A DNA stretch of 64,000 bases from Lingula anatina (GCA_051362555.1 CM120649.1:7812001-7876000); one strand, 5' to 3'. Counted from the stretch's first letter, positions 2,994-45,800 are shown. Made by a program: numbers and translations. The notes: generated by a model from the sequence alone, not told the origin.

Positions 2994-5010
2994 ACTGCAA
3001 TATGAGCCTCCGTTATAATTTCGGGGTGTTTGGGACTAAGCAGTTTAACCTGTTCCAGTGACACTGATTTGTAAATATGTAGAGCATCCTGATGGAGAAA
3101 AATGTGGCAAAAAATGTTTGCGATCATTACCAAGTTGTCTATACTTTCCAGTTTTTTAGATGCCTCTTGGGTTTCAAAATTTTTAATAACTAAAGCATCA
3201 GTTTGTTTAATATTTGGTAACATCACGGATTAAAGATTTGCATCAGTAGCGCTCATATATATCATTTCAAGCTTTTTAAGAGCTTGTATATAATAACTGC
3301 AATAGGCATCTTGAATTTCAAAATATAATTGCCATATTCCCGGGCATTGTATTCTGCATATTCCCTTAGTAAAGGGTGGACATCATAGGTGTTACCATCT
3401 GTACTAATGAGCGATTTGTTGGCAAGAATATCAAGGATATGTTCGCAATTATTTTGATCTAATCTTACAATAGCAGAGACCTCTTCCAGATTAAAAGTAA
3501 CGGGGAATGTATGAAGTCCAACAAACACCTTTCTCGCCTCCGGTTTTAATGTTTCATAAGAAATATCAAAGCAAGTTATGATTTTATTTTGGCATGCTGG
3601 GAATGGAAAGAGTGGGTAGCATCTTCTGAGTTTTAATTTTCTCCAATACTGCGTCCGTTTGTTTTTTGTCAAGCAGTCCAGCTAGCAATTTTAATGCCAG
3701 GGGGTTGTAGCCACACATTTCTGCCATTTCATCTAAGTTCGCTAACTCGCTGTCCGTGAGACTGGTTGATTTTCGTTCCCATAGGACGTCACGCGAGGAG
3801 CTTTTATCAAGTTTATCAATGTCTAACACAACTATTTTATGTGTTGTGAAATCAAATCTTTCACGACTGGCACATAACAAACTGATATGTTTTGTTGAAT
3901 CCATTACGTCTTTCAAAAATTCACTAAACTCCTTCCTATTTGAACTTAAAAAAGACTCATTATTATCTAGGATAAATGGGGTGTCAGTAGTCAAACTAGA
4001 CAAAGTCTGTTTGAATATGTTTTGGTAATCAGAGTATAAATCTTTCAAATGACATGCTGGGTGATAATGTCGGACAAGCGATAACTTGATAGAGTTAAGA
4101 TCTGTCACTTGTCTCATATCAATGTGCAGCACGTTTTGCATGCTTTCTCCAACCTTGACTGCTATGCTGGTCTTACCGATACCCCCCATCCCGGTCAGGA
4201 GAATGAGTGGAACTTTATCCCCGATATGTTGCTGTATCGTGGTAATGATGTCGTCACCCCCCCTTTAGCTCTGTGTTTATTCTTGGTAACGTCGTGGAGA
4301 GCAGGTGGCAAGGGGCTTCTGAAATCAGATTTTATTTAAAAATGAAATTTTAATAACACTTTGCTTCCAATTTACTTTTGTTTGGAAATATTTTAAGAGT
4401 ACGGATACCGTAAAGATTATACAGACCTGAATATTTAAAATGATAAAAAATCATTTTAGTTTTTCTTTTGTAAAGTTTAATCATCATATTTAAATGTACT
4501 AAATCTGAAAATATACAGCTCAATTGCCACTGAAATTTTATTAGAATTTGGGATGTTTTAAACATTATTAAAATAATTACTTTTCGCCAGTGTTTTTATA
4601 GATGTGACTTAATCTTTGTTTGTTTGTTTTTTATAACGCTGTGTTTGCATAAACATGTGTTTCTTGTGCTTGCCAGTGTGTGTGTCAGTGCACACGTGTA
4701 TTCGTGTTAAAGTATCAGTTATCAGTTATCATTGTAAAGAAGTGAAATATTTAATATGTGTGGGGTAACATACCTGAAGCATCCAATGGCTGAATCAGCA
4801 ACTTGTCGTAGTCGGCACTAGTAAACAGTGGCGACAGAGACAGCAGAATAGCTTTCAGATCAGCGAACTGGGTCTTGAAGTCTGCGTCTGAGAGACCTCC
4901 TGTTCCGTGGGTGTACTTATTGCGGTATCCCTTCACCCTGCCGATGTTGGCCTCAGTTGATGCGTCCGTGGCAGGGGGAGTGTCCCACTTTGCCCGAGGA
5001 TGCAAGTTTT
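2994..5010 (-). pseudogene. Decayed paralog of the HEPN-NB-ARC-TPR gene: partial HEPN exon 5010-4774, intron, exon 2 from 4318 to the LTR junction
   Basis: Near-colinear with 26290-24460: GRVKGYRNKYTHGTGG, GMGGIGKTS, FILDNNE, GYNPLAL, YDVHPLLRE. Same phase-1 intron position. Frameshifts at ~4257 (G7 run giving TGA), ~3585 and ~3320. 5' part replaced by Tc1 sequence, 3' part cut by the LTR. Confidence 0.9.
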
Positions 5011-5014
5011 TCAA

Positions 5015-8230: not shown

Positions 8231-9429
8231 AAAATCAAATAAAAAGAAAATCATGTTCTGTATTACTTAATGTATTAATAATATAAGAGCATTTCCCCTT
8301 AATGCACGGTTTCTAATTTCTATTTAGGGTGGGTAATATTTAACAATAACATAATGTCCGTTTAAATTATACAGACAAATTACCCAGACGTTAGAAAACA
8401 GTGCTCACCTATCTAAATTTTAGAAAGTAAAACAGCCAAGATATTTAACCAACTTTGGTCATAAAAAGTTATGGAAAGGGTAAACTTTTAGCAATCCTTT
8501 TTTTGTTTTATTTGCTGTGTTTTTACTTCAAAGCAATGCTTTTAATGGATTATACAGAACGAAGTTATTTAGGACGAAGGCACGGCGCATAATTCAATAG
8601 ACTCTGTGTGATAGAATTGTTAAATCAAGCACCGACTCTCGCAAGGCCCCCAGTTTATACCTGTATCCGAACGACTGATAACCTGAGGTTTATTGGGGAT
8701 CACGTTGGAGATATAGTCACCGTACAGACGTGATTATGCACAGATGTCAGTTTACACGAGGAAACACTGCAGATAATTTATAACAAGCGTCGTCTTTATC
8801 GAAACATCTGAATCAAATGATGTATTAATGAAATGTTTACCGACTGTCTGGTAAGGTCGATCATTTAATTTTTGATTTGGTGACACTCCGCACGTAGGTC
8901 AACTCTTTTGGGGTTCCTTGGAAGTTACAAGTATCAATAAATTGTGATTAAATGATGCTTGACGTTTAAAAAAAGACGTTCGGCGTAGCTTCTTTTCGGA
9001 GTATCATACCCCAGAATAAATTTTGTAGGACGACCGCGGGCTCATCCTGTCGGTGTTCTGACTGATATTCCGAAATGCGATCTGACACACACCTTGAAAA
9101 CGGGTAGTGTGGTCCGATGTACTGGTTAATTCAGGATTCTTATTCTTTATTGTGCTTTATTTATATATTTTTTCATATTACTTCTTCCGCTTATTTTGAA
9201 ATAAATGTGTTCATGTCTTAATTTAGTTTGCAGTTCAGCGATAAAAATGTTAGTGGGCTAGGAACAAAAGATTATTCAATAAGTTATTACTGCATGTTTT
9301 CTTTATTTTTTTATTTTTATTTTCTCTACTTTCCTGTTACCCCTTCTTCGTGTATAGAACCATGGAGAAGAAAGGACAGGATAGTTCTGAATATATAAAT
9401 TTCGAATATATTTGTTTTATAAGCAAGGC

Positions 9430-9880
9430 AGCAAAGTTACTTACTTGTCAGTCTACAACACTGTGGAACAATTTCCCACATAAGAATCCGTCTGTGAAAA
9501 CTGCTAGGCGTTGGTTACATGCCCAGAGAGTGTACAGCAGGGTAGCAAGACTGAAACCTCTTATATCGTTACAAAACAGGCAACGTAGAGGCCAACAGGA
9601 TCTGGAACTGGACAGTCCATGACAATTGGTCCTATATAGTTTTTCTGATGAGTGTCGCTTTGGTCTGACCGCTGATGACAGACGGGTACGATGCTGGCGA
9701 ACTGCTGGTTAAGCATTTGAACCACATGTGCTGAATTTTCGAACCCGGAGCAGCATATTCATCATGCTGTGGGGCTGTTACAGCATCCATGGCGTGGGTG
9801 AATTGGAAGTGGTTGGTAGAATCATGACTTACCAGAAATATATAGATGTTTTGGAGTCAGACTTGCTACCATCTATTACT
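9430..9880 (+). mobile_element. Second Tc1/mariner transposase remnant
   Basis: PSVKTARRWLH...SRVARLKPLIS...RR, then FSDECRFGL...RVRCWR...IMLWGC...GELEVV...YIDVLE, with frameshifts and stops. Confidence 0.85.
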
Positions 9881-13476: not shown

Positions 13477-15688
13477 TCTCTTTCTCTTCTCTCTATCTGT
13501 TTCTCTCTGACACACACACGTGCTATCTCTCTCTCCCCCTCACGCACACACACACCTCTGATTCTCTCTCTCTTTAACATGACAAGCTAAACACAGGTGT
13601 CAACGTCAATAACATTAACGTAAAACATTAAAACAGGTCCTGTGGTTTTCGTTCAATGGCCTTCTTTACTTACAACTTACCTTAAAAATTGAAACATTGT
13701 CCTTATGAGAACAGGGTCCCGTATCTCGAAAGCTTCGCTTATGGCGAGCGTGCGCAAGCATGGCGATTCCGCGCTATCCCATATCTCGAAAGCTTCGCAA
13801 ATCGCGGCCGTGCGCTAATAGCGAAATCAGCATTAGTTTCGAGGCTATTATTTGCGGCGATACAAACTAGTCGCAAAGGCCTCTGCGTATGCATAATTCG
13901 TCATTTTAATGTGTCTTTCATGTAATTAAACATGGCGGCAAGTTTGGGTTGCTAGTCATAATAGCATATAACAAAAGCTATAACAAAAACATGGAAGCTT
14001 ATAATAGATTGAATCACTCGGTACCTCTGATAGGAAAACTTGCGGTAAATATTTACGTGAAGAATGCTAAAGTCATGTTTTATGATGCATAAACATTTGA
14101 AAATTAAACATTTCATACATCATTTTATATTTTCTGATGAATATAATTCATCTGTGTAGTCTACTGATAATAAGCATATATTTAAAAGTGTCATTTTCTA
14201 CACAAAATGAAAAAGCAGAGACAAAGCATTCGGTCGCACCGTGACCTTCCTCAATGTCTATAACTCTATTACTATGAGACAGAACACTACTCACAAATGC
14301 GTCAATAATTGTGTCAGTCCAAGCTTCGCTAATTGAATTGTTTTTTGAAATTTTATTGGTGTCCAACACTTCAAATATCAGTATTTGTAATTATGATATT
14401 CCTATAAATAAAAACAGCCTCTTGATTAGCGTCATGGTGAAAAAATTACATTTTGTGTAATTATGTTATGACGTCATTACTTTATGCGGCAATCGAATTT
14501 TAGTAGAGTTTGAGGTTATAATTGCGTTGCGTTTGCTAAGGCTTAGAGATAGCCGGTGGGGAATCGCCATGCTCGCATCCGTGCGCAACATAGCGAAGCT
14601 TTCGAGATACGGGGCCCAGATCTATTTCCTTGTTTTCAGAAAACACGATCTCCATGAGGAAGGCAATGCAGGCCAACAACCTAAATAGTGGTCGGGTATG
14701 CTTCAAATGATATTTTATTAATGAAGATTAAGTCATATAATTATTTTATAAAATGCAAATTTCCTTCAAACCCGTGTACTACTACGAAAATAACATTTTC
14801 AGTTTTTTTTTTTTTTTTTTTTTTCATTTTCAGTACTTTTCGTGGGCGGAAGTGCCTCTCAGTTGGCAAAATATAATGAAAGCAAGGAGAAAAATTCTAT
14901 AGGACGCATGTCCAAAAAACACCAAGTTAGCACTTGCCACAAACGCAAGCAGTATTCTGGCTGGTCGTCCATTTTTGTGGGTAGACGACAGACACAGTCT
15001 GATATACTGTGAAATACCAAAAGTGGGCTGTACGAACTTTAAACGTTTGATGTATGGGCTCACGGCAAACGCAGATATTACAGAATACAAAGACATTGGG
15101 GCGTATGAAGTGCACTATAAATATCAGAAGTTTTTGGTGCCCCTGTCTGACTTTTCCGAATTTGGAATCAAGTTCCGTCTTGCAAACTATCTGAAAGTTG
15201 TTCTTGTGAGGCATCCCTTTGAAAGACTAGTGTCTGCTTACAGGAACAAATTAGAGAAACTCAGCGCTTTTTCACGTCAAATTGGGGCCTATATCAAACC
15301 TTTCATGAGATCCCCGGGGATGAAGAGCGCGCCGCAAGAAGGGGACGGAATTTCATTTGCTGCGTTCGTCAAATACATTAATGTCTATTCTCAGCTTTCT
15401 ACTAAACCGTTCAACCCGCACTGGAGAACTTATAACGAGTTGTGTAATCCATGTGACGTCAAATATGACGTCATTGTGCGATACGAAACTATCCAACATG
15501 ATGTCAGCATGTTGCTTAAACTGTTGCGCGTGGCTGTGAAGTTCAAGTACCCTGATGGTGACATGTCATCTGTGTCGTCTGCAGGAGTTTGGAGGTCCTA
15601 TTTCGCCAACGTGCCCTCTTCAGATCTCAACGAACTGAAGGGAATTTACAAACTAGACGCTAAATTGTTCAACTACACTTTCAATTAA
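13271..15688 (+). CDS. Carbohydrate sulfotransferase (Sulfotransfer_2; CHST8-14/HNK-1ST-like), exons 13271-13403, 14640-14695, 14834-15688; in-frame TAG at 14900-14902
   Basis: Exon 1 encodes a type II signal anchor (VFHTVVVVFCILVLVFVFTW). GT-AG junctions keep frame (phase 1, then 0). 5'-PSB motif YCEIPKVGCTNFKR, 3'-PB motif VRHPFERLVSAY, HW...LCNPC..KYD, and Y..D..LFNY end. Confidence 0.85.
13409..13575. repeat. Compound (CT)n/(CA)n microsatellite
   Basis: Seen directly, just downstream of the exon 1 donor. Confidence 0.95.
13714..14617. mobile_element. Non-autonomous TIR element in sulfotransferase intron 1 (PIF/Harbinger-like ends)
   Basis: gggtcccgtatctcgaaagcttcgct ... agcgaagctttcgagatacggggccc terminal inverted repeats. 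Confidence 0.7.
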
Positions 15689-19593: not shown

Positions 19594-22500
19594 CTATTGA
19601 GGAGAACAGTTTTCATACTTTGTTCTGATGACAATTTTGGCTAAATCTTCTATAATATTGACTATCCTAATGATAGCGGGGTGTTTGGGACCAAGTATCT
19701 CCAATCTCAATTTAAGACATTTTTTGTGATAATCAAGTGACTCTTTATACTCACCCATGGTCTGCAGTACACTGCCGATATTGTTGTAGGAGCTGGTATT
19801 GGGGTGTTTGGGACCAAGTATTTCCAATCTCAATTCAAGACATTTTTTTTATAATCAAGTGACTCTTTATACTCACCCATGGTCCGCAGTACACTACCGA
19901 TATTGTTGTAGGAGGTGGCGGTATTGGGGTGTTTGGGACCAAGTATCTCCTCTGTCAATGCAAGACATTTTTTTTGTGATAATCAAGTGACTCTTTATAC
20001 TTACCCATGGTCTGCAGCACATTACCGATATTGTTGTAGGAGCTGGCGGTATTGGGGTGTTTGGGACCAAGTATTTCATTTGTCAATGCAAGACAATTTT
20101 TGTGATAATCAAGAGAGTCTTTATACTTACCCATGGTCTGCAGCACATTACCGATATTGTTGTAGGAGCTGGCGGTATTGGGGTGTTTGGGACCAAGTAT
20201 CTCCAATCTCAATTCAAGACAATTTTTGTGATAATCAAGTGACTCTTTACACTCACCCATAGACCACAGTACAATACCGATATTGTTGTAGGAGGCGGCG
20301 GTATTGGGGTGTTGAGACCAAGTATTTCATTTGTCAATGCAAGACATTTTTTGTGATAATCAAGTGACTCTTTATACTTACCCATGGTCTGCAGCACATT
20401 ACCGATATTGTTGTAGGAGCTGGCGGTATTGGGGTGTTTGGGACCAAGTATCTCCAATCTCAATTAAAGACATTTTTGTGATAATCAAGTGACTCTTTAT
20501 ACTCACCCATGGCCTGCAGTACACTACCGATATTGTTGTAGGAGGTGGCGGTATCGGGGTGTTTGGGACCAAGTATCTCCTTTGTCAATGCAAGACATTT
20601 TTTGTGATAATCAAGTGATTCTTTATACTCACCCATGGCCTGCAGCACACTACCGATATTGTTGTAGGAAGTGGCGGTATTGGGGTGTTTGGGACCAAGT
20701 ATCTCCAATCTCAATTCAAGACATTTTTGGTGATAATCAAGTGACTCTTTATACTCAACCATGGCCTGCAGTACACTACCGATATTTTTGTAGGAGGTGG
20801 CGGTATTGGGGTGTTTGGGACCAAGTATCTCCACTGTCAATGCAAGACATTTTTTGTGATAATCAAGTGATTCTTTATACTCACCCATGGCCTGCAGCAC
20901 ACTACCGATATTGTTGTAAGACCAGGCGGTATTGGGATGTTTGGGACCGAGTATCTCTTCTCTCAATGCAAGCCATTTTTTGTGATAATCAAGTGACTCT
21001 TTATACTCACCCATGGCCTGCAGCACACTACCGATATTGTTGTAGGAGGTGGCGGTATTGGGGTGTTTGGGACCAAGTATCTCCAATCTCAATTCAAGAC
21101 ATTTTTTGTGATAATCAAGTGACTCTTTATACTCACCCATGGTCTGCAGCACACTACCGATATTGTTGTAGGAGGTGGCGGTTTTGGGGTGTTTGGGACC
21201 AAGTATCTCCAATCTCAATTCAAGACATTTTTTGTAATAATCAAGTGACTCTTTATACTCACCCATGGTCTGCAGCACACTACCGATATTGATGTAGGAG
21301 GTGGCGGTATTGGGGTGTTTGGGACCAAGTATTTCCTTTGTCATTGCAAGACATTTTTTGTGATAATCAAGTGACTCTTTATACTCACCCATGTCCTGCA
21401 GCACATTACCGATATTGTTGTAGGAGCTGACGGTATCAGGGTGTTTAGGACCAAGTATCTCCAATCTCAATTCAAGACATTTTTTGTAATAATCAAGTGA
21501 CTCTTTATACTCACCCATGGCCTGCAGCACATTACCGATACTGTTGTAAGAGCTGGTGGTATCGGGATGTTTGGGACCGAGTATCTCCACTGTCAATGCA
21601 AGACATTTTTTGTGATAATCAAGTGATTCTTTATACTCACCCATGGCCTGCAGCACACTACCGATATTGTTGTAGGAGCTAACGGTAGTAGGGTGTTTAG
21701 GACCAAGTATCTCCAATCTCAATTCAAGACATTTTTTGTAATAATCAAGTGACTCTTTATACTCACCCATGGCCTGCAGCACAAAACCGATATTGATGTA
21801 GGAGGTGGCGGTATTGGGGTGTTTGGGACCAAGTATTTCCTTTGTCATTGCAAGACATTTTTTGTGATAATCAAGTGACTCTTTATACTCACCCATGTCC
21901 TGCAGCAAACTACCGATATTGTTGTAGGAGCTGACGGTATCAGGGTGTTTAGGACCAAGTATCTCCAATCTCAATTCAAGACATTTTTTGTGATAATCAA
22001 GTGACTCTTTATACTCACCCATGGTCTGCAGCACACTACCGATATTGTTGTAAGAGCTGGTGGTATCGGGATGTTTGGGACCGAGTATCTCCACTGTCAA
22101 TGCAAGACATTTTTTGTGATAATCAAGTGATTCTTTATACTCACCCATGGCCTGCAGCACACTACCGATATTGTTGTAGGAGCTAACGGTATTAGGGTGT
22201 TTGGGACCAAGTATTTCCTTTGTCATTGCAAGACATTTTTTGTGATAATCAAGTGACTCTTTATACTCACCCATGTCCTGCAGCACACTACCGATATTGT
22301 TGTAGGAGCTGACGGTATCAGGGTGTTTAGGACCAAGTATCTCCAATCTCAATTCAAGACATTTTTTGTGATAATCAAGTGACTCTTTATACTCACCCAT
22401 GGTCTGCAGCACACTACCGATATTGTTGTAAGAGCTGGTGGTATCGGGATGTTTGGGACCGAGTATCTCCACTGTCAATGCAAGACATTTTTTGTGATAA

Positions 22501-25500
22501 TCAAGTGATTCTTTATACTCACCCATGTCCTGCAGCACACTACCGATATTGTTGTAGGAGGTGGCGGTTTTGGGGTGTTTAGGACCAAGTATCTCCAATC
22601 TCAATTCAAGACATTTTTTGTAATAATCAAGTGACTCTTTATACTCACCCATGGTCTGCAGCACACTACCGATATTGATGTAGGAGGTGGCGGTATTGGG
22701 GTGTTTGGGACCAAGTATCTCCAATCTCAATTCAAGACATTTTTTGTAATAATCAAGTGAGTCTTTATACTCACCCATGGCCTGCAGTACATTACCGATA
22801 CTGTTGTAAGAGCTGGCTGTATTGGGGTGTTTGGGACCGAGTATCTCCAATCTCAATTCAAGACATTTTTTGTAATAATCAAGTGACTCTTTATACTCAC
22901 CCATGGCCTGCAGCACATTACCGATACTGTTGTAAGAGCTGGTGGTATCGGGATGTTTGGGACCGAGTATCTCCACTGTCAATGCAAGACATTTTTTGTG
23001 ATAATCAAGTGATTCTTTATACTCACCCATGGCCTGCAGCACACTACCGATATTGTTGTAGGAGCTAACGGTATTAGGGTGTTTAGGACCAAGTATCTCC
23101 AATCTCAATTCAAGACATTTTTTGTAATAATCAAGTGACTCTTTATACTCACCCATGGCCTGCAGCACACTACCGATATTGTTGTAGGAGCTGGCGGTTT
23201 TGGGGTGTTTGGGACCAAGTATCTCCAATCTCAATTCAAGACATTTGTTGTAATAATCAAGTGACTCTTTATACTCACCCATGGTCTGCAGCACACTACC
23301 GTTATTGATGTAGGAGGTGGCGGTATTGGGGTGTTTGGAACCAAGTATTTCCTTTGTCATTGCAAGACATTTTTTATGATAATCAAGTGACTCTTTATAC
23401 TCACCCATGTCCTGCAGCACACTACCGATATTGTTGTAGGAGCTGACGGTATCAGGGTGTTTAGGACCAAGTATTTCCAATCTCAATTCAAGACATTTTT
23501 GGTGATAATCAAGTGACTCTTTATACTCACCCATGTCCGGCAGTACATTACCGATATTGTTGTAGGAGCTGGCGGTTTTGGGGTGTTTGGGACCAAGTAT
23601 CTCCACTGTCAATGCAAGACATTTTTTGTGATAATCAAGTGATTCTTTATACTCACCCATGTCGTGCAGCACACTACCGATATTGTTGTAAGACCAGGCG
23701 GTATTGGGATGTTTGGGACCGAGTATCTCTTCTCTCAATGCAAGACATTTTTCGTGATAATCAAGTGACTCTTTATACTCACCCATGTCACGCAGTACAG
23801 TACCGATATGGTTGTAGGAGCAGGCGGTATTTGGGTGTTTAGGACCAAGTATCTCCACTGTCAATGCAAGACATTTTTTGTGATAATCAAGTGATTCTTT
23901 ATACTCACCCATGGCCTGCAGCACATTACCGATACTGTTGTAAGAGCTGGCGGTATCGGGATGTTTGGGACCGAGTATCTCTTCTCTCAATGCAAGACAT
24001 TTTTCGTGATAATCAAGTGACTCTTTATACTCACCCATGGCCTGCAGCACATTACCGATACTGTTGTAAGAGCTGGCGGTATCGGGATGTTTGGGACCGA
24101 GTATCTCTTCTCTCAATGCAAGACATTTTTCGTGATAATCAAGTGATTCTTTATACTCACCCATTGCCTGCAGCACACTACCGATATTGTTGTAGATGCT
24201 GGTGGTATTGTGGTGCTTGAGACCAAGTATCTCCTCTCTCAATGCAAGACTTTTTTTGAAATAATCAAGTGACTCTTTATATTTACCCATGGCATAAAGT
24301 ACACTACCGATATTGTTGTAGGAGGCGGCGGTATTGGGGTGTTGAGGACCAAGTATTTCATTTGTCAATTCAAGACATTTTTTGTGATAATCAAGTGACT
24401 CTTTATATTTACCCATGGCATAAAGTACACTACCGATATTGTTGTAGGAGTAGGCGGTATCGGTGTGTTTGAGACCTAAAAGTTTAACCAGCTCATGTGA
24501 CACTGATTTGTAAATATGTAGAGCCTCCTGGTGGAGAAAAATGCTGTAAAAAATGTTTGCTATCGTTGCTAAATTGTTTACACTTTCCAGTTTTTTAGAT
24601 GCATCTTGGGTTTTGAAATTCTTAATATATAAAGCAGCCGTTTGTTTTACATGTGGTAGCATCAGGGATAAAAAAGTTGCATCTGTCGCACCAACATGTC
24701 TCATTTTAAACCTTTTGAGAGCTTTTATATAGTAACTGCAATAGGCATCTCGAATTTCAAAAATATAATTGCCATGTTTCAGGGCCTTGCATTCTGCATA
24801 TTCCCTTAGTAAAGGGTGGACATCATAGGTGTTACCATCTGTAGTAATGAGCGATTTGTTGGCAAGAATATCAAGGATATGTTCACATTTATTTTGATCT
24901 AATCTTACAATAGCAGAGGCCTCTTCCAGATTAAAAGCAACGGGGAATGTGTGAAGTGCAACAAACACCTTTCTCGCCTCCGGTTTTAATGTTTCATAAG
25001 AAATATCAAAGCAAGTTTTGATTTCTTTTGGCATGCTTGGAATGGAAAGAGTGGGTAGCATCTTCTGAGTTTTAATTTTCTCCAATACTGCTTCTGTTTG
25101 TTTTTTGTCAAGCAGTCCAGCTAGCAATTTTAAGGCAAGGGGGTTATAGCCACACATTTCTGCCATTTCATCTAAGTTCGCTAACTCGGTGTCCGTGGGA
25201 CTGGTTGATTTTCGTACCCACAGGACGTCACGCGAGGAGCTTTTATCAAGTTTATCAATGTCTAACACAACTATTTTATGTGTTGTGAAATCAAATCTTT
25301 CACGACTGGCGCATAACAAACTGATATGTTTTGTTGAATCCATTACATCTTTCAAAAATTCACTAAACTCCTTCCTATTTGAACTTAAAAAAGACTCATT
25401 ATTATCTAGGATAAATAGGGTGTCAGTAGTCAAACTAGACAAAGTCTGTTTGAATATGTTTTGGTAATCAGAGTATAAGTCTTTCAAATGACGTGTTGGG

Positions 25501-26637
25501 TGATAATGTTGGACAAGCGATAACTTGACAGAGTTAAGATCTGTCACTTGTTTCATATCAATGTACAGTACATTTTGCATGCTTTGTCCGACCTTAACTG
25601 CTATGCTGGTCTTACCGATACCCCCCATCCCGGTCAGGAGAATGAGTGGAACTTTATCTCTGATATGTTGCTGTATCGTGGTAATGATGCCATCACGACC
25701 CTTCAGATCTGTGTTTATTCTAGGTAACATCCTGGAGAGCAGCTGGCAAGGGGTTTCTGTAAAGGTTTCTGGACATTAAAATCTAAAAATAGGAAACTGT
25801 AAACACATTTTTCACCTTGTGTTGGCCATATTTAACACTTTTATATATGAAAATATACAGCTGGAGTGTCAGAATCTTTTAACATTAGAATGTTATAAGA
25901 CTATGGAATCATTATCTCTGCCATTGGTTTTGCCTGTGCTTTTATAAATGTGACTCAACGGTGTGTGTGTGTGTGTGTGTGTAGTGTGTTTGTGTGTGTG
26001 TTTTTATTAGCTCTGGTTGTATTGATGTGAAATATTGAATATTTTGCAGAAATCTACCTGAAGCGTCCAACGGCTGAATCAGCAAATTGTCGTAGTCGTC
26101 ACTAGTATTCGATGTCGACAGAGACCGCAGAATAGCTTTCAGATCATCAAACTGGGTCTTGAAGTCTGCGTCTGAGAGACCTCCTGTTCCGTGAGCGTGC
26201 TTATTGCGGTATCCCTTCACCCTGCCGATTTTGGCCTCTGTAGAAGTGTCCGTGTCTGGAGCATTGTCCCATTTTGCATGAGGATTCAAGTTTGTGATAT
26301 TTCTTAATAAGATTACAGTCAGGGTTATATCCAAGTCGTGCAATGTCACAGGAGGGGCAGGGTTCCCAGGGGGATAGAGGATATCCATTTGACTTCGATT
26401 CAGAATGTTTCTTCTCTTCACTCCCCTCGTCTTTAAACTGAGTAATGTATGTTTCACATTTTTGTCATTTAGGACATCAGATATCACGTCATTACTTGAT
26501 GGCCCATACAGCCCTGGATATTGTGCTTGTAACTGGTTACTGAGAACACCCCGAAGTACTAGGGTAGCACGTTCCAGTAGCAGGTCCATGCGGAAACGGT
26601 TTTCCTTCTCTTTTCTAGGAATTTCCCCAGTGGCCAT
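19594..26637 (-). CDS. NLR-like STAND protein: DZIP3-like HEPN + NB-ARC + ~38 TPR repeats; coding exons 26637-26058 and 25756-19594 (frameshifts in the distal repeats; open to 20460 as assembled)
   Basis: Exon 1 has DLDITLTVILLRN...W...D.STEAKIGRVKGYRNKHAH (HEPN_DZIP3-like). Donor CAG|GTAGAT and acceptor TTACAG|AA are both phase 1 and are conserved in the paralog. Walker A GMGGIGKTS, Walker B FILDN, GxP GYNPLAL, MHD-equivalent VHPLL, then 42-aa TPRs. About 1958 aa as assembled, about 2247 aa if the indels are corrected. Confidence 0.9.
19680..24480 (-). repeat. Coding tandem array, 126-bp unit, ~38 copies (42-aa kinesin-light-chain-type TPR)
   Basis: Unit TxxSYNNIGSVLQxMGEYKESLDYHKKCLxLxxEILGPKHPx counted 32 times in the long ORF and 6 more times in the frameshifted tail. 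Confidence 0.97.
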
Positions 26638-27840
26638 TTCTGGTCAAGATTACTGCAAAGAGTCAAGAGAGGAGTTATAGGGTTCGTCAACATATTTCCA
26701 TTATCTCGTAATTACTTACGATAAGACAAATGCGATAGAGGTAATACAATTGTCATCATTGCAAAGATATTTGTTTTTCATCTACATATGACTGTAGTGT
26801 AACACTTTATATCATAAAGAGTCCTCGGTGTATGGTGTAGTGTTCACAAATATAACGTGTAGTGTTCACAAATATAATTCCCAGACATGTAAATTAGAGT
26901 CGATTGCTTGTGCACTCGACTCGTTTTATGGCCTTACCTGAAGTCATGTAACTTAAGTGGACGTGTGCAATTTGAATAATTAAAATTAGTATGTACCGCC
27001 AAATACTGCAGCACAGAATCCACCTAAAGATAAGAAATAAGTATAAAAGACGTATAGAATTAATATCGGGGGACAGACTGAAGAATACTCGAAGGAGACC
27101 GCTCGACGGAGCTATGGGAGACGGCCTAGAGCTTGGAGGCTTCACGTATAGAACATGTAGTTAGAGATCGTCAACCAATAAACCATTAAACTGGTCATTA
27201 TGTGGACTTGAGTTTTCTTTGCGCGACCTCACGTAAATCTGACACGAACCGTGGAATTTTGAATTGCGTTATCCACTGAGTAAGTCTAAAACGTAATGTC
27301 CTATTTCGAGCCCACGCTTGAATTAAGCGTACAAAAATTATATAAGTTTAGGACATTCATCTCATATGTATATGTCAAGGTACATAACAATGGCATATAT
27401 GTTTAATGTGTCAGCGTGTACTGTGGGCGATAAAGGTTTATAATTTTCCTGTTTTAAAAGTCTTATACTCTATTTGATAAATATAAGAAGGGATTAATAC
27501 AAAAAAAGCATTCACCTCTATGGGTATTCTAGCACAATTGTTTTTATATGATCTTATTTCCGCATATTTGTTCCATTATCATATTGCCAACATTTGCGTT
27601 TCAAATATACTATACAAATACCGGCTTAGCAGGCTCGTGAAAGTTAATGATCCATGCAAATTCACTGCTTTTAAGTAAGTGAAGAAAAATCAGTCATGGA
27701 GCAAACAACACTTGCTGGCTTCAGCAGGGAAAGTTGATTCTATCCAAAGAGAAAATGATGGAGCAATGTATGCAGAGCATAAGCGTAATAAGTAGAAAAC
27801 ATTGAAAAACAAACATTGCTTGATGAGTTTTCTAGAATTT

Positions 27841-30054
27841 AACAAGGCAGCAAAGCTGTCAAATGTACAGACAAAAAAAAAAAAAAACAGAAAATAAAGA
27901 TGCAAATAAGTGAAAAATTAAATTTTCACAAAAAACTGTTAAATTGCCAGAAAAATTTACCAAACAGACTGCATTGCCTATTGAAGCTGTATGTTAGACC
28001 CATGTTTCTTTCCTGTAAGTTTGAGAACAGTAAGTGACATGATTTCCCTTAAATGGTCATCATAGGAGCAGTGCCCAAAATAGGGGTTTCTTCAAATTTT
28101 GATGCAACATTACATAATGTTGAACAGCATGATGACAATCAAATGTTATTAATAAAATATTAGTAACATGGACATTCAGAAAATGTGACAAGCAAAAGTC
28201 TTCAGGATCATGGAACTTAAAAGTCACACCTTGTACATGCCAATATGTGAAAAATTAAATTTTCACAAAAAACTGTTAAACTGCCAAAAAAAAGAAAAAA
28301 AAAATACCAAACAGACTGCATGGCCTACTGAAGCTGTATTTTAGTCCCAGGTTTCTTTCCTGTAAGTTTGAGAACAGTAAGTGACATGATTTTCCTTAAA
28401 TGGTCATCATGGAAGCAGTGCCCAAAAAAGGGGTTTCTTCAAATTTTGATGCAATATTACATAATGTTTAACAGCTTAATGACCATCAATTTTTAATTAT
28501 AAAATATTTGTATCACAGATATTCAGAAAATGTGACTAGCAAAGGTCTTCAGGCCCATGGAACTTCAAAGTCACATATTGAAAATGCCAAAATGTAAACA
28601 AGACAGCACTGTTCTGAAATGGGTTTCTTTCCATTTTTAACACTTTTTTAACATAAAACAAAATAAACATTTTACTGCCATTTTTATATGACCAACTAAG
28701 AAAATTGATGAGATGGGAAAACTATCAATAGAACAGTGTTAAATGTCCAATTTCCTCCATTCTGAGATTCTGAACATAGTGGATGATTGAATCTGACAAA
28801 CTGCAATGATATGAGTTTATTTCCATTTTTGACACTTTATTACACAATACATGATAACAAGTTTACCATGTTTTTTACATAATCAACTAACAATGTTGTA
28901 AAGATGCAGGAAATATCAAACAAACACTTTTAGGCATCTTATTAGTTAAATAATGAGACTGTTAACATGCCTAATAATTGAATCTGAAGACATGTGAAAA
29001 AACAGTATAACTTCTAAAATAATGGCCCGATTATGCTGATTTTCGAACTCATCCTGCGTTTTAGTAAGATTGACCACTCCTGTGAGTATAATTACAATTG
29101 GCCAATCTGTTTTTCTTATATTGTGTTATCAGTGTTGCATTTATATTGAAAATAGTGAAAAAACAGTATAAATTCCCTAAAAATGGCCCAATCATGCTGT
29201 TTTTCAAACTTGACCTGCGTATTATGAATATTCATCAGTTCTGTAAGTTTCAAGTCAAAAGGTAAAATGGTTTTCTACTTATCGTGTTATCGGTGCTGCA
29301 TATATGCTGAAAAAAGTGAAAAAACAGCATAAATTCCCTTAAAGTGACCCAATCATGCTGATTTTCGAACTCGACCTGCGTATTATGAATATTCATCAGT
29401 TCTGTAAGTTTCAAGTCAAAAGGTAAAATGGTTTTCTACTTATCGTGTTATCGGTGCTGCATATATGCTGAAAAAAGTGAAAAAACAGCATAAATTCCCT
29501 TAAAGTGACCCAATCATGCTGATTTTCGAACTCGACCTGCGTATTATGAATATTCATCAGTTCTGTAAGTTTCAAGTCAAAAGGTAAAATGGTTTTCCAC
29601 TTATCGTGTTATCGGTGCTGCATATATGCTGAAAAAAGTGAAAAAACAGCATAAATTCCCTAAAAGTGACCCGATCGTGCTGATTTTCGAACTTGACCTG
29701 CGTATTATGAATATTCATCAGTTCTGTAAGTTTCAAGTCAAAAGGTAAAATGGTTTTCCACTTATCGTGTTATCGGTGCTGCATATATGCTGAAAAAAGT
29801 GAAAAAACAGCATAAATTCCCTAAAAGTGACCCGATCATGCTGATTTTCGAACTTGACCTGCGTATTATGAATATTCATCAGTTTTGCAAGTTTCAAGTC
29901 AAAAGGTAAAATGGTTTTCCACTTATCGTGTTATCGGTAAAAGTGCACGGCGACGACGGCGACGACGGCGACGACGGCGCCGACGGCGACGACGGCGACG
30001 ACAGACGCAGATGATGGCTATATGTACAGACACATCTGTGTCTGTACATAAAAA
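27841..30054 (+). mobile_element. Helentron/HINE-like non-autonomous element with internal ~350-bp and 161-bp tandem repeats
   Basis: 5' aacaaggcagcaaagctgtcaaatgtacagac, 161-bp unit ~6 times (28990-29940), (CGACGACGG)n tract, 3' hairpin atgtacagacac-atct-gtgtctgtacat; second copy at 43464-46141. Confidence 0.75.
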
Positions 30055-36878: not shown

Positions 36879-39800
36879 TCATAACTTTTCTTTCGATGGC
36901 ACCCAAATCATGGGGCCCGACTGGTCGCGAATGACCTCCTTGACCTTTGCATAGATGTCATCTGGCGTGTCCCCGCTGACCACAGCTGAAAACAATATGG
37001 GGGAGATTCAAGTGAAACTTAACATCAATATTCTAAAGAAGCATGGGTATACCAGCATCATCAGATGATACCTTTTTTGCTTTGGCTGGGACATTTTCTT
37101 GGACATGCATATTCATCTTAAAGAACCAAGGTTAGCACAAAAATTATTTTAAGATTAAAACTATTCCTACAATGCTCCGATACAAAACAACATAATCAAT
37201 GAAAAATCTGAGGTTTGAAAATCATTCCCAGTTTTTTCAATTCCACTACTTCTGTAATAAACATTTCTTTGATTACTTCATTTTGTTTTAAATTTACCTG
37301 TGATTTTTTCCACCAAACTCTTGCTCTAAACTCAACTTACCTGTGAAATACTCTCCAAACTCTTGCTCTAATCTCAATGCTTTTTCAAAACTTTTCTTGG
37401 CCTGCTCTTCTGTCATTCTCTTGTTCCACTCCCTGCAAAAAATTAATCATTATCTCACAAATGTGATTACTTCTACATTCTAACAACCACACAAACACTC
37501 ACATTCATAGCCAACACTGCCAGCATTTATATTACAGATTTTGCATTACTTGGTATAGTAAACAATAGAATAAAACTACTTCCATTATTTACATTATACA
37601 TTGTTCAGTTCTTGGTTTTTAATTAATAAAGATGGCTATTGGGTAGAGTAGACCTACTGTTAGTACTTACATTATAGATTCTGCACTTCTTGGTTTAATA
37701 AAGATGGCTATAGGGTAGAGTTGAGCAACCTGGAGTCTCTTAATAGCATTTCCACTAACATCTAATATACAATGCTTGCCCTGAAATCAGGAAATAATTT
37801 GGTAACTTCAGTCTGGATACTATGACAGGTGTCATATCACTCCTCTTTCAACCTCACCCCCCCCCCCCCCCCCCTTTGATAAAAAACTTATGGTAATGAC
37901 TTGATTTTTTCAATCAGAAAAATAATGAATTTTAAAAATACTGTATTTTTAAGTCACAAATCCTTGAATAAGAACATACTCAGTGGTAACAACAAAACTA
38001 AAAAGCACGCTTCAAGTTCTATCTGCATAGTATAAGCACCACACATGCTACAACAAAGAAATATATATTTTAATGGATCTAAAATCATGACTCTGAAACA
38101 AAAGTAATTTTTCCCACTGAAAAGATTGCTTCATTATCCTAATTCATTATGGGCAATAACTACCTTTTCTGCGACCTCCCTGACTGAGGCAACACTTGTG
38201 CCGTACAGATGCTCGTTGTACTGCCCCGCTTCGATGAACAGGTGGTCCTGAATGTCCTTCTCCATCTGCTCTCGAGAGTCCACGAAGTGGTAGTCACGCC
38301 CGTCCACCTCGTAGTCTCTGCGCGGACGTGTCGTGTCTGCAAACGATGACAGTCATCAGTAGCTGTTAAACAGTTGGCTGCATCTTTGATTTTGCTGTTT
38401 TGCTACATGTTTTATTTTATTTGTATTATATTGTATTAAGTAGTATTGTGATGATGTATTTGTTTGTGTATAATTTGCTTGTGTTCTCTTTTGTAATACA
38501 ATGTTACTTTATAATGCAGTGGTATAATGGCAAATGTTGCATGATGTTAAAAGCTATGTTGTATTAGTTGTACATTAATTAAACTTTGCTGTCTTACCTT
38601 CAATCAAATGTTGTAGAGCACTGATTTTTTTTCACTATGTTGTTTTCCTCTGTATGAAGTTGTCTACTCTTATATGCCAAACCATGTTGAAAACGTTGCA
38701 CATTGTATAATATTTTACTACTTTGTATTATGTTGTTGGCATTGACTGAACATGGTATTCTCGTGTATAACGCAGTAAACTATTGACTGTTATACATGCT
38801 ATAGCATTTGACTGACAGTTGACTTACGAGGTACACAGCTGCCAAACTTGTCCGGGTACTCTGATATCAGGTCGTCATTAATTCTGTCCTTCAGCGGGCC
38901 CAGCAAAATGATAGGGCGCGTCACCTTCACTGGAAGACGGAATTCACACAGACATTATTCAGTTGTCAGTATATTATGCTAGCAATCTTTACAGTACAAT
39001 GTGCCTGCTTGAGCATATCATTTCTTAAAGCCATATAATTTTTACACCAACTAAACCAAGAATTTGTTGCAAAAAAAAAAAAATAAATATCTAACATTTA
39101 CTTAAGACAACTCACTTTCTTGCTGCAATACTGGTTTATACAATGTGTTAGGTGTGACAGTGTCTGTAAGAATGTGTTAGGTGTGACAGTATTTGTAAGA
39201 ACGTGTTAGGTGTGACAGTATTTGTAAGAATGTGTTAGGTGTGACAGGGTTGTAGTGGACCAGCTATTTACTCACATTCTTGCTGTATCACTGGTTCATA
39301 GGTGAGCACTGGTTCATCCCCTCCTGTAACAACAGAAATGGCGGCATTACTTCATTGTCAACTTTCTCTCGCAAAGAACAAAAGAGCTTAATAGGTGAAA
39401 TTATTAAAAGAAATTAAAACTGATAATGTGAAAATTTACTCATGTTTTATAAACAGTGAAACAGTTTAATACATTTAATGAAATTAAGAACATTTTTTTC
39501 TTGACAATGAAGTGGATTACACTTAGTGTATTTATTTCATAAGTAAATGCTAAGAATAAATACGTTTACTGCAATCCTCATAGTGCCTTTCCTCAAATCA
39601 AATTATATCTTTGAACAAAAAAATCAATTTCATAATCACATATTCTGTTTTAACATCATATCAGCTCTTATTACAATCAGTGCACTCTATTTCTGTCATA
39701 TATCATTTAGAAACAAAAATAGGAGAAAGGTATCACAGCCAGTTTGTCCAGCTCTCATCTTTTACATAATTCATGTGGTACTGAGAAAGGAAAAAGAAAA

Positions 39801-42800: not shown

Positions 42801-45800
42801 AAAGTATTAACAAAAGGATCAAATAAGCTCATAGCTCTGCTCTATAATATACAGAAGCAAAATATGAATAAAAGGCTTCTCGTGTTGTAGCAATATGAAT
42901 GGACATGTCAGGTCTTTTGCCAGTACAAGTTACAAATGAAATCTAAACAGCAGCCAATGACAAACGTGCTTTCAAACTGAATCAAGACACACTGTGCCAA
43001 AGCAGCAAGATCTATAAAAGCCAACTTCCTCAAATGGTCTTATCTTGAAGTATAACACCCTCTATAGGAGGATAAAACTTACGTTCATCCACAGTGACAT
43101 CTTCCATGCTTGTGCCACTCTTGTCTTTGCTCTTCATGAATGGGAACTTCTTGGTGAAGGAGAAATTCTTCTTCTTCTGTTTGTCTGCTGCTGTGCCACC
43201 AACAGCCTAGTAGGACAGAGGGGAAGTTATTTTGAACTGTGAAACTAGATGGCAAACCTGACAAATATACAGACATCACCTGCTGGGATGGAGGGAAAGT
43301 TATTTTGAACTGTGAATCTCACTAGTGGGCCAGATTAAGTCTTAAAGTGCACATTCAAACCAGTACTGATCTGACGTGGTCTTAAAGATTAACCAAACAG
43401 CCTTAAACCGCACTGGCTCAGGTTTTAAGATAAAAACTGATATAAATCACAGTGAGTAAAAAAAACAAGGCAGCAAAGCTGTCAAATGTACAGACAAAAA
43501 ACAGGAAATAACTATGCACAAAATAGGCTACTGTCAATTCTGATGCAAAAATACATTATATCAAACTGCAAATTCAACATCAAATTTTAATTATCCTCAA
43601 CAGGTAATACCAATGTAATTAAAATATGTGACAAGTTTACACTTTGAAAATGTATAACTTCCAGAAAAAGAAGTTCCTTAGACTGCTTTTCCAACTCAGA
43701 CTGCATTTTAGTCCAGTATTTCTTTTTTGAAAGTTTGGCAATCATAAGTAACATGGTTTTCCCATAATGGTCATCATGGCAGCAGCACCCAAAATTGTGT
43801 TTTCTTCTATTCTGATGCAATATTACATAATGGTTAACAGCATAATAACTCAATTTTAATAATAAAATATACGTATCATGGATTTTCAGAAAATGTGACT
43901 AGCATGGGTCTTCAAGCCCGTGGAACTTCAAAGTCACACCTTGAAAATGCCAATATGTGAAAAATTAAATTTTCACAAAATAACTGTTTAACTGGCAGCA
44001 AGAATTACCAAACAGACTGTATTTCCTATTGAAGCTGTATTTTAGTCCCATGTTTCTTTCCTGTAAGTTTGAGAACAGTAAATGACATGGTTTTTCTTAA
44101 ATGGTCATCATGGGAGCAGTGCCCAAAATAGTTTTTTTTTTCAAATTTTGATGCAATATTACATAATGTTTAACAGCATAATGACCATCAACTTTAATAA
44201 TAAAATATTAGTATTATGGATATTCAGAAAATGTGACTAGCAAAGGTCTTCAGGCCCATGGAACTTCAAAGTCACAACTTGAAAATGCCAAAATGTAAAC
44301 GAGACAGCACTGTTCTGAAATGTTTTTTTTTTTCCATTTTTAACAATTTTTAACATAAAACAAAATTATCAGTTTTCTGCCGTTTTTATATGATAAACTA
44401 AGAAAATTGATGAGATGGGAAAAATATCAACAGAGCAGTGTTAAATGTCCAATCTCTTCCATTCTGAGATTCTGAACATAGTGAATGATTGAATCTGACA
44501 AACTGCAATGATATGAGTTTATTTCCATTTTTGAAACTTTATTACACAATACACGATAACAAGTTTACCATCATTTTTACATAATCAACTAATAATGTTG
44601 TAAAATTGCAGGAAATGCCAAACAAACACTTTTACCTATCTTATTAGTTCAATAATGAAACTGTTTACATGCCTAAGAATTAAATCTGAGGAAATGTGAA
44701 AAAACTGCATTTCTTTAAAATAATGGCCCGATTATGCTGATTTTTTAACTCAACCTGCGTTTTAGCAGGAATGACAACTCCTGTGAGTTTAATGACAATT
44801 GGCCTATCTGTTTTTCTTATATTGTGTTTACAGTGTTGCATATATGCTGAAAAGTGAAAAAAAAAGCATAACTACTAAAATAGTGGCCCGATCATGCCGA
44901 TTTTCGAACTTGACCTGCATTTTATGAATATTCATCAGCTCTGTAAATATACAGCCAAAAAGTAAAACTGCCTTCCACTTATCGTGTTTACAATGAAAGT
45001 GCATGGCGCCGGCGACAGCGACAGTGACGGCCACGATGGCGACGACAGACGCAGGTGATGGCAATATGTACAGACACATCTGTACATATTAACTGTACTG
45101 TTTGAGAACAGTAAGTGACATGGTTTTTCTTATATGGTCATCATGGGAGCAGTGCCCAAAATAGGTTTTTTTCAAATTTTGATGCAATATTACATAATGT
45201 TTAACAGCATAATGATCATCAATTTTTAATAATAAAATATTAGTATCATGGACAAATAGTAAACGTGACTAACAAAGGTTTTTAGGCCGATGGAACTTCA
45301 AAGTCACACCTTCAAAATGCCAAAATGTAAACAAGACTGCACTGTTCTGAAATGGGTTTATTTCCATTTTTAACACTTTTTTAACATAAAACAAAATTAA
45401 TAGGTTACTGCCATTTTTATAAGATCAACTAAGAAAATTGATGAGATGTGAAAAATATCAATAGAACAGTGTTAAATGTCCAATTTCTTCCATTCTGAGA
45501 TTCTGAACATAGTGAATGATTGAATCTGACAAACTGCAATGATATGAGTTTATTTCCATTTTTGACACTTTATTATACAATACACGATAACAAGTTTACC
45601 ATCATTTTTACATAATCAACTAACAATGTTGTAAAGATGCAGGAAATGTCAAACAAACACTTTTACGTATCTTATTACTTAAATAATAAGGCTATTAACA
45701 TGCCTAAGAATTAAATCTGAGGAAATCTGAGGAAATGTGAAAAACAGCATAACTTCTAAAATAATGCCCCGATTATGCTGATTTTCGAACTTGACCTGTG

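What the first reader, a model, noticed from the sequence alone, without database searches (positions are those of the whole stretch)
19594..26637. Animal NLR-like receptor with a predicted HEPN RNase effector: HEPN-NB-ARC-TPR(38)
Seen: the ORF track lists 25942-26637 and 20460-25730 separately, but a 301-bp phase-1 GT-AG intron (26057-25757) joins them, and the paralog has the same junction. An upstream acceptor (26652) followed by an in-frame TAA supports ATG 26637 as the start. The N-terminal domain has an intact R-x4-H motif (RNKHAH, 26208-26191). Established: RxxxxH HEPN domains are dimer-activated RNases (Cas13, Csm6, RNase L/Ire1 KEN, toxins), and effector-STAND-repeat is the NLR plan shared with fungal heterokaryon-incompatibility NLRs and bacterial Avs. 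Inference: ligand binding by the TPRs oligomerises the ATPase and switches on an RNase, giving an innate-immune or allorecognition system unlike vertebrate death-fold NACHT-LRR proteins. DZIP3-like HEPN fusions are known computationally in invertebrates, so the novelty lies in the function and this exact architecture.
Basis: partly seen in the sequence, partly recalled or inferred. Interest (0 to 1): 0.9.

Follow-up and report, generated by a model that had tools for sequence, protein, structure and literature searches.

The report
Brachiopod HEPN–NB-ARC–TPR immune receptor gene
This is a two-coding-exon lamp-shell (Lingula) gene that joins a predicted RNA-cutting HEPN domain to a nucleotide-binding switch domain and 31 variable sensor repeats, likely an immune receptor that would destroy RNA when triggered; the same layout is already catalogued in corals, and our literature searches found no test of its activity.

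Summary
The gene is real. Exon 1 (26637-26058) is a HEPN_DZIP3 domain (E 3e-31) with RNKHAH. The 301-bp GT-AG intron is crossed by RNA reads of this family. Exon 2 is an NB-ARC-type STAND with all motifs, then 42-residue TPRs. All close relatives are Lingula anatina proteins: a lineage-specific family of at least 14 models.

Two corrections. (1) 'TPR(38)' holds only as DNA: the frame ends at 20460 (1958 aa, 31 full repeats). The last 7 units and the cap carry clustered indels and stops, probably real decay. (2) The architecture is not new: coral tables list HEPN/NB-ARC/TPR (Noel 2023).

Added here: repeat variation concentrates at ligand-groove positions, as in fungal NLRs. The same HEPN module also heads Lingula Roc-COR, RIG-I-like helicase and GTPase proteins, and one case breaks exactly at this exon junction. 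Best reading: a ligand-gated RNase receptor (0.6). Oligomerisation, RNase activity and ligand are all inferred.

The parts
26638..26654 (-). Splice acceptor AG (26654-26653) and 15-nt 5' UTR piece with in-frame TAA and TGA before the ATG; the upstream non-coding exon was not located
   Evidence: Sequence; family RNA depth falls to zero above about 26663
26058..26637 (-). Coding exon 1: whole DZIP3-like HEPN domain (193 codons + 1 nt)
   Evidence: Pfam PF18738 E 3.3e-31; AF2 model pLDDT 87.5, all-helical
26191..26208 (-). R-x4-H motif RNKHAH (R144, N145, H149)
   Evidence: R and N invariant in 17 of 17 Lingula HEPNs, H in 16 of 17
25757..26057 (-). 301-bp phase-1 GT-AG intron with a (CA)n tract
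   Evidence: joint 25756/26058 in RNA reads; same junction in RefSeq paralogs
24804..25756 (-). NB-ARC/AP-ATPase-type STAND module: Walker A 25631-25608, Walker B 25418-25401, sensor CASRE 25313-25299, GxP motif 25151-25131, winged-helix HP motif 24827-24804
   Evidence: NB-ARC E 6.6e-7; best solved relative AfsR E 3.7e-6; motif conservation in 13 of 13 Lingula rows
24465..24803 (-). Helical linker between winged helix and first TPR
   Evidence: Translation; no separate Pfam family assigned
20460..24464 (-). Translated TPR array: 31 complete 42-aa units (27 distinct) plus a partial 32nd, ending at TGA 20462-20460
   Evidence: mean pairwise DNA identity 89.6%
19594..20480 (-). Untranslated, decayed end of the array: units 32-38 and the former capping helix, with indels near 20475, 20315, 19970, 19850, 19795 and 19635 and two stops in the former frame
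   Evidence: comparison with the C-terminus of paralog P0001
3017..5014 (-). Pseudogene paralog: 3' part of the HEPN exon (motif RNKYTH), intron, STAND region with frameshifts and a stop, no TPR array
   Evidence: 91.6% DNA identity over 1305 bp; lesions; HEPN_DZIP3 E 5e-14

Best explanation
This is a Lingula gene for a HEPN–STAND–TPR protein that is likely an intracellular NLR-like immune receptor, whose variable TPR groove would bind a foreign or damage ligand and whose HEPN domains would then cut RNA. Steps: (1) shown: spliced two-coding-exon gene, intact R-x4-H, complete STAND motifs, 31 translated repeats varying mainly at groove positions, family expression that differs strongly between samples; (2) inferred from STAND proteins in general: a closed ADP-bound monomer opens on ligand binding, exchanges nucleotide and oligomerises; (3) inferred from Csm6, AbiF and RNase L-type HEPNs: clustering pairs two R-x4-H motifs into one active site; (4) inferred: cleavage of viral and/or host RNA, translation arrest or cell death. 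The family evolves by birth and death, repeat expansion and trimming, and re-use of the HEPN exon on other sensors.
For: HEPN_DZIP3 E 3.3e-31. R144/N145 invariant in 17 of 17 and H149 in 16 of 17 Lingula HEPNs that are only 43-95% identical. Best structural matches of the model in both searches are the HEPN RNases Csm6 and AbiF (weak scores). Walker A, Walker B Asp, sensor Arg, GxP Pro and winged-helix His present in 13 of 13 aligned Lingula STANDs. Groove positions (TPR 2, 5, 6, 9, 12, 13 per PMC1261162): minimum changes N:S 21:2 against 31:16 elsewhere, Fisher p 0.039; entropy 1.14 against 0.34 bits, p 0.0013, the pattern reported for fungal NB-ARC/TPR NLRs (PMC4986451). Lingula STANDs form one clade, 13 rows, SH-aLRT 99. 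In run X6 all 565 laid reads have the orientation expected of minus-strand RNA, exon depth about 5-67, intron about 1; 18 reads are 99%+ alike. The same HEPN heads proteins with Roc-COR, RIG-I-like helicase and IIGP GTPase domains (family names recalled from accessions). Related STANDs elsewhere carry HEPN_DZIP3, DUF4559, DED or CARD.
Against: No activity, ligand or oligomer is shown, and no paper testing RNase activity of a DZIP3-type HEPN was found. Fold matches are weak: Foldseek E 0.49 or worse, VIA Z 7.0 with rmsd 4.6-5.3, a level the tool says may mean only a common helical arrangement. The groove signal weakens without the first two units (16:3 against 24:14, p 0.13), and repeats are not independent. 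This copy has lost its capping helix and sits 15 kb from a dead paralog. Most laid reads are under 95% alike (410 of 565 in X6), so expression of this locus itself is only probable; at 92% likeness no joint was listed and run X1 had no exon coverage. One paralog, P0003, lacks the motif histidine.
Confidence: 0.6

Rival explanations
1. This copy is a dying member of the family: once a receptor, now drifting towards a pseudogene after a stop cut off seven repeats and the cap.
For: Five indel events in the last 7 of 38 units and none in the first 31; a stop in the former frame in unit 32 and another in the tail; neighbouring pseudogene; few near-identical reads in most runs.
Against: 1958 open codons with every motif intact; non-groove repeat positions show a deficit of amino-acid change (p 0.02-0.06); paralog models with 724-1285 aa show that fewer repeats are usual, and P0002 also ends mid-repeat; 18 reads at 99%+ and low intron coverage on the sense strand in X6.
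Confidence: 0.17
2. The protein is a sensor, but its HEPN is an RNA-binding or adaptor module without nuclease activity, and signalling runs through partner proteins.
For: No DZIP3-type HEPN activity test was found in the library; PMC10236652 calls the domain 'RNA-binding'; P0003 lacks the histidine.
Against: R and N are invariant in 17 of 17 and H present in 16 of 17 diverged copies, which a purely adaptor role would not need; 194 of 202 pearl-oyster copies keep Rx4-6H (PMC9646362).
Confidence: 0.13
3. The lesions in the last seven units are assembly errors, and the true protein has 38 repeats and a cap. The function would be the same as in the best explanation.
For: Several indels lie in or beside homopolymer runs, the usual long-read error; no DNA reads or genome were available to check.
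Against: 45 similar homopolymer sites in units 1-31 have no indel; lesions cluster at the unique-sequence end (p about 2e-4 if uniform); substitutions also give two stops in the former frame and hit positions invariant in all 31 translated units.
Confidence: 0.2
4. An allorecognition receptor in the manner of fungal heterokaryon-incompatibility NLRs.
For: Same effector/NB-ARC/TPR plan, highly conserved repeats and groove variation as fungal NLRs; het-z is an NB-ARC+TPR NLR (PMC13449251).
Against: Lingula is solitary and not known to fuse (own knowledge); the co-use of this HEPN with RIG-I-like helicase and IIGP GTPase domains points to pathogen defence. No allele data.
Confidence: 0.07

Closest known systems
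Coral DZIP3-like HEPN / NB-ARC / TPR proteins (orthogroup OG0000193, Noel et al. 2023, PMC10236652, Additional file 17)
   Same: Identical three-part architecture: 15 of the first 30 of 53 rows seen.
   Different: The Lingula STANDs form their own clade; its place beside cnidarian or bacterial STANDs is unresolved (supports 83-86). Orthology was not tested. A 31-unit near-identical array is longer than in any Lingula paralog model retrieved (724-1285 aa).
HEPN-NACHT(-LRR/TPR/WD40) proteins of pearl oyster and anthozoans (PMC9646362, PMC8260672)
   Same: Same N-terminal HEPN family, Rx4H with Asn after Arg, lineage expansion, putative RNase role already proposed.
   Different: NACHT rather than NB-ARC-type ATPase.
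Fungal NB-ARC/TPR NLRs with highly conserved repeats (Podospora Pa_2_10340, het-z; PMC4986451, PMC13449251)
   Same: Effector-NB-ARC-TPR plan, 85%+ repeat identity, variable sites on the concave face.
   Different: Effectors there are sesB-like, patatin, PNP-UDP or HET domains; here a HEPN, in an animal.
Bacterial STAND-TPR proteins: AfsR (solved) and Avs anti-phage receptors (Avs recalled, not tested)
   Same: AfsR is the best solved sequence relative of the STAND module, E 3.7e-6 over 287 residues. Avs share the logic of TPR sensing, oligomerisation and enzyme effector (own knowledge).
   Different: About 25% identity only; AfsR is a transcription activator; no evidence of transfer from bacteria.
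HEPN RNases Csm6, AbiF, RNase L/Ire1 KEN
   Same: R-x4-6-H motif; Csm6 and AbiF rank first in both fold searches.
   Different: Weak structural scores; activation there is by cyclic oligoadenylate, RNA antitoxin or kinase dimerisation (own knowledge), here by an inferred STAND switch.

Membership tests
DZIP3/hRUL138-like HEPN (PF18738) | Profile match above the curated cut-off | tested here: met
   108.4 bits against cut-off 27, profile positions 6-138 of 144
DZIP3/hRUL138-like HEPN (PF18738) | R-x4-6-H motif, Asn after Arg | tested here: met
   RNKHAH; conserved in the family
Active HEPN RNases (Csm6, AbiF, KEN) | HEPN helical fold by structure comparison | tested here: inconclusive
   Top ranks are Csm6 and AbiF, but Foldseek E 0.49 or worse and Z 7.0, rmsd 4.6-5.3
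Active HEPN RNases (Csm6, AbiF, KEN) | Dimeric composite active site and RNA cleavage | not testable with these tools
   Needs biochemistry
NB-ARC / AP-ATPase STAND | NB-ARC profile match and Walker A, Walker B, sensor Arg, GxP and winged-helix His | tested here: met
   PF00931 29.3 bits against cut-off 23.5; motifs; AfsR alignment across the module. The residue after the winged-helix His is Pro in 13 of 13 Lingula rows and 17 of 44 other non-bacterial-side rows: a family trait
NB-ARC / AP-ATPase STAND | Nucleotide-dependent oligomerisation | not testable with these tools
   Inferred from the class
NLR in the strict sense (NACHT or NB-ARC plus LRR) | C-terminal leucine-rich repeats | tested here: not met
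   Repeats are TPR_10/TPR_12; 'NLR-like' is the correct label
NLR-like receptors with highly conserved repeats (fungal definition) | Repeats over 85% identical across 100+ residues | tested here: met
   Mean pairwise DNA identity 89.6% over 31 units; definition in PMC4986451
NLR-like receptors with highly conserved repeats (fungal definition) | Diversifying selection at concave-face sites | tested here: inconclusive
   Variation is enriched at groove sites (p 0.0013); N:S excess p 0.039 with all units, p 0.13 without the first two; no allele data
NLR-like receptors with highly conserved repeats (fungal definition) | Repeat-number polymorphism between individuals | not testable with these tools
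   One haplotype only; no genome or DNA runs held
Coral orthogroup OG0000193 | Shared ancestry of the STAND module (orthology) | tested here: inconclusive
   OG0000193 sequences were not fetched; the tree with database hits leaves the Lingula clade unplaced

The most novel reading that the evidence does not exclude
Lingula uses one HEPN exon as a plug-in RNase executioner on at least four unrelated sensors (STAND-TPR, Roc-COR, RIG-I-like helicase, IIGP GTPase). This gene is then an animal counterpart of bacterial Avs receptors: a single protein that senses through a recombining, fungal-style variable TPR groove and kills RNA directly, with no death-fold adaptor or caspase.
Probability: 0.4. 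Interest if true: 0.75.

Novelty: new member of a known kind. Interest (0 to 1): 0.42.

Why it matters
HEPN-STAND proteins are among the most expanded receptor-like families in corals and bivalves, yet our searches found no test of their activity. This gene offers a clean test case: the effector is one exon, the motif is intact, and the sensor has near-identical repeats with a few variable groove sites. If it is a ligand-gated RNase, invertebrates have an RNase L-like or Avs-like arm of innate immunity built into the receptor. The architecture itself is not a discovery.

Tried and rejected
Own genome: none held, so family size rests on RefSeq models from capped searches. Run search: no RNA holder listed; only same-species runs. 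First read lay at 92% likeness: no joint listed across the intron; the heavy coverage at 26850-27400 has many loose ends and looks like a repeat transcribed elsewhere. Single-sequence fold: pLDDT 42.9, discarded. HEPN homodimer prediction: no verdict, score 0.00, no evidence either way. Foldseek: 0 matches at E 0.001. Transfer of the STAND from bacteria, suggested by the word-index searches where all non-Lingula hits with a name were bacterial: rejected as unproven, because the full HMMER search ranked cnidarian proteins higher (Dendronephthya, Actinia, Oculina) and the tree leaves the clade unplaced (71 rows: 13 Lingula plus a subset of hits, 2 short rows dropped, P0012 and P0031 left out). 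The family-wide entropy test (51 units, p 0.0006) used a pattern that fixes some structural positions, so it is inflated and not relied on. Earlier scan findings: none. Gerdol et al. 2018 on Lingula immunity is not held and may describe this family; supplementary files 13-17 of PMC10236652 were not searched.

Full report
Observation. The minus strand carries two long frames, 25942-26643 and 20460-25775. A 301-bp GT..AG intron at 26057-25757, phase 1, joins them into one frame of 1958 codons. An acceptor AG just above 26652 is followed by in-frame TAA and TGA, then ATG 26637; most paralog proteins begin at the equivalent methionine. Pfam gives HEPN_DZIP3 for exon 1 (E 3.3e-31), and NB-ARC (E 6.6e-7) and 32 TPR_10 stretches for exon 2. 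RNKHAH lies at 26208-26191.

Splicing and expression. No genome and no RNA holder were listed, but same-species RNA runs were. At 92% likeness, four runs gave thin exon coverage and no listed joint. At 82%, the joint 25756/26058 (skip 301, CT..AC) appeared in 3 of 4 runs (X6 4 reads, X7 1, X9 1, X5 0), with three near-by joints from diverged copies. In X6 all 565 reads had the orientation expected of minus-strand RNA, with depth about 5-67 in exons and about 1 in the intron; 18 were 99%+ alike, 137 were 95-99%, 410 were lower. X5, of the same study and read to the same depth, gave 2 reads. So the family is spliced as predicted and its expression differs strongly between samples; expression of this very locus is probable, not proven.

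Correction on the repeats. The DNA array has 38 units of 126 bp, but the frame ends at TGA 20462-20460 in unit 32, leaving 31 complete 42-aa units. Units 1-31 have no indel; units 32, 33, 36 and 37 have five, and the tail has another. Unit 32 also has a stop in the former frame, and the tail, compared with paralog P0001, has a frameshift and a stop in the former capping helix. Clustering of five events in the last 7 of 38 units has p about 2e-4 if uniform, and 45 homopolymer sites in units 1-31 are clean. I read this as a real truncation followed by decay (about 0.8), with assembly error as the rival.

Identity and family. All 9 hits of the HEPN search are Lingula anatina RefSeq models, 46-82% identical. 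The STAND searches add more: 14 Lingula models in all, 12 with the HEPN, 11 of these with TPRs. Those from the same sub-clade show the same junction. A full HMMER search found only 6 proteins below E 1e-30, all Lingula; the next are at most 34% identical. Of 20 of these looked up, 3 carry names, all cnidarian. Of the top 20 scanned, 2 carry HEPN_DZIP3, 2 DUF4559 (the CXorf38-type HEPN, recalled), 1 DED and 1 CARD; home-made profiles found 4 and 9 of 144 with the two HEPN types. The Lingula STANDs form one clade (SH-aLRT 99) whose outside position is unresolved. A pseudogene copy lies at 3017-5014.

Effector. R144 and N145 are invariant in 17 of 17 Lingula HEPNs and H149 is present in 16. The AF2 model (17 sequences, pLDDT 87.5) matches Csm6 and AbiF first in both searches, weakly. 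The same HEPN heads four other Lingula models: Roc-COR (P0006), RIG-I-like helicase (P0007), IIGP GTPase (P0008) and another helicase (P0009) (names recalled from Pfam accessions). P0006 is 95% identical to the HEPN of the STAND-TPR protein P0005, sister to it in the tree (95/93), and identity ends at residue 195, the position of this gene's exon junction. That is the signature of exon shuffling, subject to the RefSeq model being right; genomic boundaries of those genes could not be checked. A survey of lophotrochozoan RIG-I-like receptors has no occurrence of HEPN or DZIP3 in its main text (PMC8998645, passages).

Switch. Walker A, Walker B Asp, sensor Arg, GxP Pro and the winged-helix His are present here and in 13 of 13 aligned Lingula rows. 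The best solved relative is AfsR; ESM Atlas neighbours are NB-ARC/AAA_22 clusters from bacteria and cnidarians.

Sensor. The 31 units average 89.6% DNA identity, with higher identity at lags 4, 7 and 11, as block duplication would give. The ligand-contact positions 2, 5, 6, 9, 12, 13 of the TPR (PMC1261162, passages; register set by the TPR consensus, recalled) are all variable: entropy 1.14 against 0.34 bits (p 0.0013); minimum changes N:S 21:2 against 31:16 (p 0.039), falling to 16:3 against 24:14 (p 0.13) without the first two units. Fungal NB-ARC/TPR NLRs show the same pattern (PMC4986451, passages), and such repeats are reported in NLR-like proteins of animals too (PMC13449251, passages and section 12).

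Mechanism. Most likely (0.6): ligand binding in the TPR groove opens the STAND, nucleotide exchange drives oligomerisation, HEPN domains pair and cut RNA, giving antiviral RNA destruction or cell arrest. Anatomy, motifs, splicing and repeat variation are shown; every dynamic step is inferred from the classes. Rivals: dying copy (0.17), non-catalytic adaptor HEPN (0.13), allorecognition (0.07); the assembly-error rival (0.2) concerns length only.

What is known. DZIP3-type HEPN fused to TPR, NACHT, DEATH and others in animals is in Table 1 of PMC3710099 (passages). HEPN-NACHT expansions with Rx4H and a proposed RNase role are in PMC9646362 (passages) and PMC8260672 (passages). The exact HEPN/NB-ARC/TPR architecture is listed for Acropora and Pocillopora in PMC10236652 (passages and Additional file 17; 15 of the first 30 of 53 rows of OG0000193). 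Searches found no description of the Lingula family and no activity test; PMC8195603 and PMC11508797 (passages) did not describe it. Gerdol 2018 was not available.

Verdict. A real, probably functional member of a known but untested kind. New details are the Lingula expansion, the shuffled HEPN exon, groove-focused repeat variation and the trimmed array. Interest 0.42.

Noticed in passing
P0006, P0007, P0008, P0009 (Lingula anatina RefSeq models): The same HEPN module heads Roc-COR, RIG-I-like helicase, IIGP GTPase and another helicase protein. A HEPN-RIG-I-like fusion with an intact R-x5-H would couple dsRNA sensing directly to an RNase; HEPN is not mentioned in the main text of PMC8998645.
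   Followed up: partly
window 3017-5014, minus strand: Pseudogene paralog: 5' half of the HEPN exon missing, frameshifts near 4260, 3590 and 3320, a stop near 3585, ends before the TPR array.
   Followed up: yes
window 3-1739, plus strand: Integrase end of an LTR retrotransposon (rve, Integrase_H2C2, DUF5641; Bel/Pao type, recalled), open for 578 codons at the window edge.
   Followed up: no
window 14903-15688, plus strand: Sulfotransferase_2 exon (E 1.7e-48) lying between the two HEPN-STAND copies.
   Followed up: no
window 38137-38352 and 47444-47665, minus strand: Guanylate kinase and SH3 exons, likely one MAGUK-type gene upstream on the same strand.
   Followed up: no
window 9254-9619, plus strand: Tc1/mariner-type transposase HTH fragment (E 3.9e-6, below the curated cut-off).
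   Followed up: no
window 26850-27400: Heavily covered in all four RNA runs with many loose ends and differences; looks like a dispersed repeat transcribed elsewhere, just upstream of the gene.
   Followed up: partly
window 27900-29940 and 43680-46140: Related dispersed and tandem repeats of about 160 bp units, 85-91% alike; also a 37-bp minisatellite at 46530-47477.
   Followed up: no
runs X5 and X6 (same study): 2 against 565 family reads at equal sequencing depth: strong tissue, condition or individual dependence, cause not known.
   Followed up: no
P0054, P0065 and 7 more hits: Related STAND proteins carry a DUF4559-type domain, 7 of 9 with an RN-x-W-A-H motif, in the same effector slot; P0160 (HEPN_DZIP3) and P0188 (DUF4559-like) are sisters in the STAND tree, suggesting effector swapping outside Lingula too.
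   Followed up: partly
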